Positions 16,341-49,268 of a stretch of DNA of 64,000 nt are shown here, in pieces; within the stretch, counting starts at the first letter, position 1, and the number at the start of each line of letters is the position of its first letter. The stretch lies in IMG/VR virus record IMGVR_UViG_3300043331_002222, one strand, 5' to 3'. Source of the DNA: a virus. The notes under the pieces were generated by a model. It searched no databases. It had not been told where the DNA came from and saw nothing but the letters and a program-made list of their open reading frames with translations. Both the position numbers and the translations under genes were made by a program.

Positions 16341-16543
16341 GGTTGAACCCCTTCCCGTGCGGGTCCTTCTTCCGTCCGTACCGCTACGACGTCGTCGCCG
16401 GGCCGGTCGAGCAGCACCCGACCAAGCCCGTAGAAGACTGCGAGCCGGTCACCGAGACCGGACCAGCGATGACCGTCTGGAGGTGTCAACGACCGTCATG
16501 TGGACACACGTGGCGCCAGTTCGGGTGGGTACACGTCACGTGA
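16337..16543 (+). CDS. Small Cys-containing hypothetical protein
   Basis: GTGA overlaps. Confidence 0.45.
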   Translation: MRLNPFPCGSFFRPYRYDVVAGPVEQHPTKPVEDCEPVTETGPAMTVWRCQRPSCGHTWRQFGWVHVT

Positions 16544-48012: not shown

Positions 48013-48041
48013 TGGACACGGCCTCGATCGTAAGGTAAGGT
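48013..48041 (+). promoter_or_regulatory. Promoter TGGACA-N17-TAAGGT, leaderless for 48049
   Basis: Exact match; ATG 7 nt downstream. Confidence 0.75.
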
Positions 48042-48048
48042 CTCGGCC

Positions 48049-48336
48049 ATGGAAGAGACGAAGATCCTCAAGCCCAACCCCATCAGCACCACCCAGTTCA
48101 CCTGGGACAAGGCGTCCAAGACCTTCATCGGCGAGATCTCCAGCACCCACGGCTTCGGCCGGGTGTACAACGACTCCGCCGACGAGGGGCTCACCCTCGT
48201 CTCACAGTGGACCGGTCGTGAGATGGTGTTCGTGGTGGAGCACACCGAGCGTGACCAGGACGGTGACGTTCAGTTCTGGCTGCTCAAGCCGGTCGATCGC
48301 TCCCTGTGGGCGACTGTCAAGCTGTTCAACGACTAG
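48049..48336 (+). CDS. Hypothetical protein in an opposite-strand cassette
   Basis: Own promoter and terminator; globular sequence, RVYNDSADEG...KLFND. Confidence 0.75.
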   Translation: MEETKILKPNPISTTQFTWDKASKTFIGEISSTHGFGRVYNDSADEGLTLVSQWTGREMVFVVEHTERDQDGDVQFWLLKPVDRSLWATVKLFND

Positions 48337-48341
48337 CTAGG

Positions 48342-48364
48342 AGCCCCCGGAGACCCCGGGGGCT
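48342..48364 (+). terminator. Intrinsic terminator
   Basis: AGCCCCCGG-agacc-CCGGGGGCT followed by TCTTCG. Confidence 0.7.
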
Positions 48365-48384
48365 TCTTCGTGCCCAGAAACTTC

Positions 48385-48414
48385 TGGACGACGCTTGGCC
48401 TTGGTAGGTAAGGT
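48385..48414 (+). promoter_or_regulatory. Promoter TGGACG-N18-TAAGGT with no downstream protein gene
   Basis: Family match. Confidence 0.65.
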
Positions 48415-48420
48415 GTCGGT

Positions 48421-48705
48421 CCGGTAGAGGACCCACCTCACGGCCGTGAGGGGGGTTGTGAGTGACAGAACGAGGGCTCCCTCTCTTCTCGGGGAACCCG
48501 ACCCATTGTGACGGTACGAAACCAGCCGTGACCAGGGCTCTCCCACCAACGGCAAGTGCTGAGGTGGTGATCCCGAACTCGAGGCGAGCTACCTCGGGGG
48601 CCGTGGCGGAGGTTGCGCTCCCGTACTGAGCTCGTCGGAACGGCCTGCAACGCCCAGAGAGGCCGACGTTGGGGGTAGGCAGTCCCCCCTCACACCCTCT
48701 ACCAC
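48421..48705 (+). ncRNA. Candidate structured ncRNA (about 285 nt)
   Basis: 5' GGTAGAGG pairs with 3' CCTCTACC; at least six internal hairpins; own promoter. Confidence 0.5.
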
Positions 48706-49268
48706 CGTCCGGGCGCCCCCGAAGTGTTCTGCCCGTCGATGGTCCAGACCCACGTGACCTCGTCGACGTGGTGGAACTTGGCCCCGAGCCGGTTCATCTG
48801 CATCCAGAACTCCCAGTCGTCGCCGCTGAAGCCAGCGTTGATCGGCGGCGGGAAGTGGCACTGCCGAGCGAGCTCCCCTCGGACGAGTGCCGTGATCGGG
48901 AACGTGTGCGGTACGTTGGGGTCCCACTGCTTGCCACGGTTGCACGCGATCGGATCACCGCCACCAAGGCTGGGCGTGTACCACGGCCACACGATGTCGG
49001 CCTCGGTCGTCGCCTGTTCCCGCAGCAGGGTCTCGAGGTGGTGTGGGAGGAGCTGGTCATCGTCGTCAAGGAACGCGACCCACTCGCTCGTGGTCGCCAG
49101 CAGGGCACGGGTCCGGGTCGGCCCAGCGCCCTCCTTGTCATGGTCGACAGCGATCGAGACGTGCTCGGGCGGCACGGTCTGTGACCACACGCTGGGCAGG
49201 CACCGGTTGAGCAACGACTGGTTCCGTGGCGGGATCGAGGGGATGACTACCGCGATGCCGCTCGCCAC
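48699..49268 (-). CDS. GT-A (family 2) glycosyltransferase
   Basis: VVIPSIPPR, EGAGPTR, VAFLDDDD, DDWEFW; GGGAGG RBS before GTG 49268. Confidence 0.88.
   Translation of the reverse strand: MASGIAVVIPSIPPRNQSLLNRCLPSVWSQTVPPEHVSIAVDHDKEGAGPTRTRALLATTSEWVAFLDDDDQLLPHHLETLLREQATTEADIVWPWYTPSLGGGDPIACNRGKQWDPNVPHTFPITALVRGELARQCHFPPPINAGFSGDDWEFWMQMNRLGAKFHHVDEVTWVWTIDGQNTSGAPGRW

What the first reader, a model, noticed from the sequence alone, without database searches (positions are those of the whole stretch)
48385..48705. Highly structured ~285-nt RNA candidate with paired ends and its own promoter
Seen: the promoter has no plausible protein gene downstream. GGTAGAGG (48423-48430) is perfectly complementary to CCTCTACC (48696-48703), closing a multi-branch structure containing CCTCAC-GGCC-GTGAGG, GGT-ACGAA-ACC, CCACC...GGTGG, CTCGAGG...CCTCGGG, CGTCG/GGCCT...AGGCC/CGACG and GGGGG...CCCCC stems. 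It converges on the last glycosyltransferase stop codon. I could not match it to tRNA, tmRNA, RNase P or hammerhead cores. Inference: a new phage ncRNA class, for example packaging-associated, a protein sponge or an anti-defence RNA.
Basis: partly seen in the sequence, partly recalled or inferred. Interest (0 to 1): 0.7.

Follow-up and report, generated by a model that had tools for sequence, protein, structure and literature searches.

The report
Expressed manA-type RNA of soil actinophages
The flagged stretch is a real folded RNA gene of a soil phage, recovered from soil RNA data. It is an uncatalogued, enlarged relative of the 'manA' RNA (recently shown to build RNA-only cages), built on a remodelled tRNA skeleton, and cultured Streptomyces phages with and without it allow a direct test of its function.

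Summary
Real RNA gene, but not a new class. Window 48431-48699 (+) has its own promoter; the motif occurs 9 times in the window against 0.1 by chance. Three soil metatranscriptome runs hold it as one 249-264-nt contig with almost no flank cover. It matches Rfam manA end to end but below threshold (21 of 55 bits). I found 25 homologues, mostly filling gaps in tRNA arrays of Streptomyces BF and Microbacterium GD phages. They covary strongly, and a model built without the window scores it at E 5.5e-16. The core looks like a long-variable-arm tRNA (U8, A14, A15-U48, G53-C61) with enlarged arms and no elbow. A loop-3/helix-8 pairing covaries in 15 lineages (0/20000 permutations) and matches a cage contact in manA cryo-EM. 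manA's L5-L7 kiss is not kept. Close BF phages lack the RNA, so it is accessory, not a packaging RNA. Best reading: a stable trans-acting RNA that self-assembles through kissing loops and supports phage translation under host attack; assembly and function are inferred. The scan found manA-like phage RNAs on other DNA before; my note searches found none for actinophages.

The parts
48385..48414 (+). Promoter of the RNA: -35 TGGACG, 18-nt spacer, -10 TAAGGT; start site inferred at about 48421-48423
   Evidence: motif class 9 times in the window vs 0.1 expected; start site inferred, not mapped
48423..48703 (+). Probable primary transcript, closed by the 8-bp helix P0 (48423-48430/48696-48703). 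P0 is particular to this copy.
   Evidence: not seen in homologues
48431..48699 (+). manA-type RNA core
   Evidence: Rfam manA 48436-48698, 21.1 bits, E 0.0059; model R1 48431-48698, 56.1 bits, E 5.5e-16; RNA contigs 48436-48699, 48437-48685, 48439-48693
48431..48456 (+). P1 hairpin; loop with its closing pair is the palindrome CGGCCG (candidate L1-L1' kiss)
   Evidence: homologues have GACG or GGCA loops
48458..48693 (+). P2, 5-bp acceptor-like helix (48458-48462/48689-48693), followed by unpaired A-C-C
48463..48510 (+). D-arm equivalent: U8-G9, 3-bp P3a (48465-48467/48507-48509), GAA, and hairpin P3b inserted in the D loop, with loop L3 at about 48481-48490
48512..48628 (+). Anticodon-arm equivalent, the enlarged P4 domain: P4a 48512-17/48623-28; P4b 48525-33/48599-607; P6 48535-48574 (tip shares 19 nt exactly with phage Caron); P7 48579-97; Px 48608-21
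   Evidence: the window's registers were set by hand from homology, so they are inferred
48633..48668 (+). Variable-arm equivalent: P8a 48633-38/48663-68, P8b with loop L8, and strand J8 (48655-48662), which is complementary to L3 (48480-48486 with 48656-48662)
48670..48688 (+). T-arm equivalent: U48, 5-bp P9 and an 8-nt loop L9 without the UUC motif
48013..48367 (+). Upstream unit: promoter of the same class (48013-48041), 95-aa ORF of no known family (48049-48336) and a terminator-like hairpin (48339-48367) that separates it from the RNA gene
48699..49268 (-). Last glycosyltransferase of the sugar cluster; its stop codon overlaps the 3' strand of P0
46083..47837 (-). Major capsid (hexamer-type) protein; the RNA gene lies antisense within the head module

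Best explanation
An accessory, separately transcribed, very stable phage RNA of the manA fold, belonging to an actinophage branch that Rfam does not capture. Its skeleton is a remodelled long-variable-arm tRNA: the four-way core is kept, the acceptor helix is cut to 5 bp, the elbow is lost, and the D loop, anticodon arm and variable arm carry added hairpins whose loops pair with each other. As in manA cryo-EM structures, these loop pairs most likely form between molecules and build rings or closed cages (L3 with J8 of a neighbour; the palindromic L1 linking rings). It acts in trans, in the same service as the phage tRNA arrays where most copies sit: sustaining phage translation when the host attacks tRNA, as a multivalent nuclease-resistant decoy or container. 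SHOWN here: gene, promoter motif, discrete RNA contigs, covarying fold, L3-J8 complementarity, tRNA-core nucleotides, dispensability in relatives (about 0.9). INFERRED: oligomer or cage (about 0.6); counter-defence or tRNA-support role (about 0.3).
For: Full-length manA matches for the window and for homologues up to 45 bits, E 1e-8. A bona fide manA is hit back by model R1. 36 of 46 predicted pairs show compensatory change; 89.6% of cells paired against 41-47% for slid controls. L3-J8: cognate mean 5.3 vs 2.9 Watson-Crick pairs, 0 of 20000 permutations over 15 lineages, and kept in held-out L264. The preprint 10.64898/2026.07.01.735769 shows L3-L8' as an intermolecular contact and all five manA variants solved as oligomers. 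tRNA-core positions are invariant in 25 of 25 sequences. Most homologues fill the gap between two tRNA genes; others have their own promoter or terminator. RNA contigs match the model's boundaries. Absent from Abafar, Stella, Manuel and Immanuel3.
Against: The L5-L7 kiss, the one contact shared by the four four-way-junction manA structures, has no clear counterpart; the P4 domain is rebuilt. L3-J8 could be an intramolecular pseudoknot, and sequence cannot tell. The L8-L9 test was not significant. This copy has no tRNA genes in the 64-kb window. No paper found gives a function for manA. Cages are in-vitro results from a preprint. The homology fold is 13 kcal/mol above the MFE before pseudoknots. 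Homologues were fished with motifs taken from the window, so invariance at positions 8-15 and at the 3' end is partly built in.
Confidence: 0.5

Rival explanations
1. A monomeric tRNA mimic: all long-range pairs form within one molecule, and the RNA titrates a host tRNA-binding protein (leucyl-tRNA synthetase, an anticodon nuclease or a processing enzyme).
For: It keeps U8-A14, A15-U48 and an A-C-C 3' end, which are tRNA-Leu elements (PMC2377443, PMC12360207). Loops of the array homologues read U-NAG-CG, like Leu anticodons. R1's only other hit was a type II tRNA-Leu.
Against: G18-U55 and G19-C56, needed for leucylation, are absent. The acceptor is 5 bp with a 5' extension. The isotype test did not single out Leu: Lys scored higher on average. 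The window copy lacks the UUAG loops.
Confidence: 0.22
2. A largely neutral or selfish stable RNA that spreads in tRNA arrays and promoter cassettes because it is processed like a tRNA and resists decay, or a processing or catalytic RNA.
For: Patchy presence and a clean loss in Abafar, which keeps an 18-nt remnant. Found in unrelated phage types.
Against: Dense covariation, including a long-range pairing, implies selection on a complex fold. No ribozyme family matches, and no mobility gene was seen beside the array copies.
Confidence: 0.12
3. A virion or packaging RNA like phi29 pRNA, a pentameric kissing-loop ring on the prohead (one of the first reader's options).
For: manA builds pentamers and pRNA is a kissing-loop pentamer (PMC7357161). 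The window copy and L032 lie inside head modules, and BF arrays lie just upstream of the scaffold and capsid genes. RNA is seen where capsid mRNA almost is not.
Against: Four complete cultured BF phages lack it. Five capsid-related records lack it, two of them complete. The phage encodes an ordinary large terminase and portal. It lies antisense to the head genes.
Confidence: 0.08
4. A cis-regulatory element or riboswitch as manA is catalogued, or an antisense RNA acting on the glycosyltransferase-capsid transcript.
For: Rfam type and the original description (PMC2864571). It overlaps the glycosyltransferase stop codon and is complementary to any read-through head-gene mRNA.
Against: There is no downstream gene on its strand. 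Homologues lie between tRNAs or have their own terminator. Conservation follows the fold on the + strand; the - strand folds at z = -0.15.
Confidence: 0.06

Closest known systems
manA RNA motif (Rfam RF01745; PMC2864571; cryo-EM preprint 10.64898/2026.07.01.735769)
   Same: Order and nesting of P1, P2, P3a/b, P4, P8, P9; UG-AC-N-GAA core and 3' CCUCNCAC; L3 pairing with the strand just before the P8 3' arm; phage-borne; L8/L9 CUG/CAG register as in manA_A0F1.
   Different: About 265 nt against 192; 21 bits against a 55.2 cut-off; P4 domain rebuilt (P4a, Px, P4b, P6 with a conserved internal-loop tip, P7), with no L5 GGUGGUG / L7 ACCA kiss; palindromic L1; extra terminal helix P0; soil actinophage rather than marine cyanophage or Photobacterium; stand-alone gene, not a 5' leader.
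Type II (long variable arm) tRNA, tRNA-Leu type
   Same: U8, G9, 3-bp D stem, G13, A14, A15-U48, 5-bp T stem with G49 and G53-C61 running into an acceptor helix, then A-C-C; most copies sit inside tRNA arrays.
   Different: 5-bp acceptor, 5' hairpin extension, no G18G19, no UUC T loop, no single 7-nt anticodon loop; ARAGORN and Rfam tRNA negative.
GOLLD and ROOL RNAs (PMC12286853)
   Same: Abundant phage RNAs of unknown function near tRNA islands that form RNA-only cages.
   Different: Much longer (659 nt and over 800 nt in that paper), different folds, no Rfam match here; works-like analogy only.
phi29 prohead RNA (pRNA)
   Same: Kissing-loop ring formation is plausible; gene lies near head genes.
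   Different: No sequence or fold match; dispensable in relatives; terminase/portal phage.

Membership tests
manA RNA (RF01745) | Score at or above the Rfam gathering threshold (55.2 bits) | tested here: not met
   21.1 bits, E 0.0059, model positions 1-192; homologues 22-45 bits
manA RNA (RF01745) | Core architecture P1-P2-P3a/b-P4-P8-P9 with conserved junction nucleotides | tested here: met
   reciprocal hit of a true manA by R1, E 2e-5
manA RNA (RF01745) | Four-way junction P4-P5-P6-P7 with the L5-L7' kiss (absent junction in variant 6FAB) | tested here: not met
   P4 domain has another layout, and GGUGG is paired within P6. An L7-Lx GC/GC kiss is possible but unproven.
manA RNA (RF01745) | L3-L8 long-range pairing (contact I2) | tested here: met
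   cis or trans not determined
manA RNA (RF01745) | L8-L9 pairing | tested here: inconclusive
   4 bp possible in the window; permutation p about 0.13-0.53
manA RNA (RF01745) | Position in the 5' leader of a protein gene (cis-regulatory) | tested here: not met
   No downstream gene on its strand; homologues lie between tRNAs
manA RNA (RF01745) | Assembly into pentamers, decamers or 60-mers | not testable with these tools
   needs SEC or cryo-EM
tRNA | Core tertiary nucleotides U8, A14, R15-Y48, G53-C61 | tested here: met
   25 of 25 sequences; positions 8-15 partly fixed by the search pattern
tRNA | 7-bp acceptor stem, G18G19, UUC T loop, 7-nt anticodon loop | tested here: not met
tRNA | Descent specifically from tRNA-Leu | tested here: inconclusive
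   Best single tRNA is a type II Leu, but Lys has the higher mean among 227 tRNAs
tRNA | Aminoacylation | not testable with these tools
   the missing elbow argues against it
phi29-type pRNA | Essential and present in all phages of the group | tested here: not met
GOLLD / ROOL / RNase P / tmRNA / known ribozymes | Rfam covariance-model match | tested here: not met

The most novel reading that the evidence does not exclude
manA-type RNAs are tRNA genes turned into self-assembling building blocks. This actinophage form builds, inside infected cells, an RNA-only cage or ring that shelters phage tRNAs or soaks up host tRNA-targeting defence nucleases, which would be a protein-free counter-defence compartment.
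Probability: 0.2. Interest if true: 0.9.

Novelty: new variant of a known kind. Interest (0 to 1): 0.6.

Why it matters
manA has a reported cage structure but no function, and its known carriers are mostly marine metagenome sequences and cyanophages. This branch puts a manA-fold RNA into cultured SEA-PHAGES isolates on standard hosts. It includes a natural pair: Zeigle has the RNA and Abafar lacks it, with 98.8% identical scaffold proteins. The question of what phage RNA cages do in a cell thus becomes testable. The tRNA skeleton, which the cryo-EM preprint's main text does not mention, suggests how such RNAs arise and why they live in tRNA arrays. It also argues that the Rfam 'cis-regulatory' label does not fit this branch.

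Tried and rejected
Rfam at threshold, ARAGORN and the sigma70/terminator scan: nothing. Direct blastn of the window RNA against phages: no real hit; homologues came only through motif patterns. Pattern scans gave many false hits (a coding repeat in L012-L019, Collinsella rows), removed by helix checks and model R1. R1 found none in 151 sampled genomes of the class of a Micromonospora genome, with no positive control and few candidates scored, so this is not proof of absence. Energy-based evidence is weak, and the MFE shares only 28 of 85 pairs with the homology fold. The L8-L9 covariation test was not significant; I did not re-tune it. The tRNA-Leu-specific origin was not resolved. Lack of RNA cover on the flanks was not used to rank expression. 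Pairing of the UUAGCG loops with the GCUGA of the P6 tip was rejected, because that segment switches to GGUGA together with its own stem partner while the loops stay. The 95-aa neighbour has no family or useful structural match. No whole genome is held for the window. My memory-based likeness to RNase P and group II intron motifs was not borne out.

Full report
Setting. The window is a 68% G+C tailed phage of actinophage type: terminase, portal, MuF-like protein, a sugar-modification cluster and a hexamer-type major capsid protein, all on the minus strand. Identical DNA occurs in rhizosphere and soil metagenomes. The flagged stretch lies on the plus strand between a 95-aa orphan ORF, closed by a strong hairpin at 48339-48367, and the stop codon of the last glycosyltransferase at 48699.

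Observation. The promoter belongs to a class found nine times in the window, against 0.1 in controls. Energy alone would not have made the case: z = -2.0, and 28 of 190 GC-matched segments fold as well. No Rfam family reaches its cut-off, but manA (RF01745) aligns over all 192 positions to 48436-48698 at 21.1 bits, E 0.0059.

Expression. Six soil metatranscriptome runs hold about a fifth to a quarter of the words of a 1-kb query. In three runs laid on 6 kb, one contig each covers 48436-48699, 48437-48685 and 48439-48693, with no differences and no loose ends; the only other true piece is one depth-2 capsid fragment. A DNA run continues past the 3' end but has its own gap near the 5' end. These are contigs, possibly from one campaign: they show a discrete RNA-sized piece, not strand, exact ends or level.

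Family. Patterns built from the manA-like anchors recovered a true manA (L003, 65 bits) and then a set of sub-threshold relatives. BLAST extended these to Streptomyces cluster BF phages, Microbacterium jumbo phages (Cece, A3Wally, Big4, Zooman, Pumpernickel) and Caron. There the RNA fills a gap of about 245 nt between two tRNA genes. Metagenome scans added more. Three (L032, L085, L133) have no tRNA nearby and show a promoter-like or terminator-like flank, as the window does. RNAalifold finds compensatory changes in 36 of 46 pairs. The curated structure is paired in 89.6% of cells, against 41-47% when slid. A model built without the window scores it at 56.1 bits, E 5.5e-16, as the only hit in 64 kb, and hits true manA at E 2e-5. 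Homologues score up to 45 bits on the manA model. Caveat: the anchors used to fish were taken from the window.

Fold. The window copy forms all helices of the family: P1; P2; P3a with hairpin P3b; a P4 domain of P4a, P4b, P6, P7 and Px; P8a/b; P9. The 8-bp end helix is real, about 0.9% by chance, but private to this copy; it may protect ends that tRNA processing defines elsewhere (inference). The strongest tertiary signal is between loop L3 and the strand just before the 3' arm of P8: different sequences in each lineage, always complementary (5.3 vs 2.9 pairs; 0 of 20000 permutations), and again in held-out L264. By position this equals contact I2 (L3-L8'), which is intermolecular in Photobacterium manA. 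L1 is a palindrome here and GACG or GGCA in relatives; L1-L1' contacts are reported for the 60-mer, and GACG loops are known two-pair kissers (PMC7357161). L8-L9 was not significant. The L5-L7 kiss of manA is not kept. In the window, L8 is also complementary to the Px loop, with three changed pairs relative to BF phages; this is a single event and untested.

tRNA skeleton. R1's only other hit was a type II tRNA-Leu. Read in tRNA numbering, all 25 aligned sequences have U8, G9, G13, A14, A15, U48, G49, G53, C61 and an A after the acceptor-like helix. U48, G49 and C61 were not in the patterns that gathered this set. P3b sits in the D loop, P4 replaces the anticodon arm, P8 is the variable arm and P9 the T arm. 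The acceptor has 5 bp and the elbow (G18-U55, G19-C56), needed for leucylation (PMC2377443), is gone, so it is not a working tRNA. A Leu origin is suggestive only. The preprint's main text never mentions tRNA.

Distribution. Of 29 BF records, 15 carry the RNA by BLAST. Abafar, Stella, Manuel and Immanuel3 lack it genome-wide, with Zeigle as positive control. Five records related through the capsid protein lack it. It is therefore accessory and mobile.

Mechanism. Shown: an own gene, a discrete RNA piece, a conserved fold, a covarying long-range pairing, a tRNA-like core, and dispensability. Inferred from manA structures (preprint 10.64898/2026.07.01.735769): loop pairs form between molecules and give rings or cages, at about 0.6. 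Inferred from context, as for GOLLD and ROOL near tRNA islands (PMC12286853): a role in keeping phage translation going under host attack, as decoy or container, at about 0.3. Rivals: monomeric tRNA mimic 0.22, neutral or processing RNA 0.12, packaging RNA 0.08, cis or antisense regulator 0.06.

Verdict. It works like manA and shares its core, but it fails the Rfam threshold and lacks the L5-L7 junction, so I file it as a new variant and not as a member. Interest is 0.6: the class is known and this scan has met manA-like RNAs before, but this branch has expression evidence, a visible tRNA ancestry and cultured phages with and without it.

Noticed in passing
window:55712-59032 (-): 1106-aa head-morphogenesis protein fuses a 2H phosphoesterase (2'-5' RNA ligase family, PF13563) to a MuF domain.
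   Followed up: no
window 4855(-), 9078(-), 9112, 12476, 28209, 48013, 63844: Promoters of the TGGACR-N17/18-TARRNT class are followed 7-9 nt later by ATG/GTG-GAN-GAG, which suggests leaderless mRNAs with a shared start. The RNA gene may have borrowed such a cassette.
   Followed up: no
L266 vs window 48428 and 48681: The only two differences in the 1.4 kb compared are A-to-G changes inside the RNA; both turn a predicted A-U pair into G-U (P0 and L8-L9).
   Followed up: partly
L023, L022, L031 (loops L7, Lx, L8): tRNA-array homologues carry two or three hexaloops reading U-NAG-CG, like Leu anticodon loops; the window copy has other loops there.
   Followed up: partly
L028:327-500 (phage Big4): A hypothetical protein is annotated over the RNA, probably spurious.
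   Followed up: no
L270 (Abafar, record 16439-16456): An 18-nt remnant of the RNA's 3' arm is left after a deletion in the tRNA array.
   Followed up: partly
L032:4262-4498: A stand-alone homologue lies antisense between head genes of another phage, the same arrangement as in the window (gene roles judged from sequence, not tested).
   Followed up: partly
L003:4772-4976: A bona fide manA RNA (65 bits) on an IMG/VR contig without tRNA genes.
   Followed up: partly
window:48699-53465 (-): Glycosyltransferase and methyltransferase cluster between protease-like and capsid genes, possibly for virion glycosylation.
   Followed up: no
window:48049-48336 (+): 95-aa orphan ORF with its own promoter and terminator-like hairpin; no family or structural match.
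   Followed up: partly
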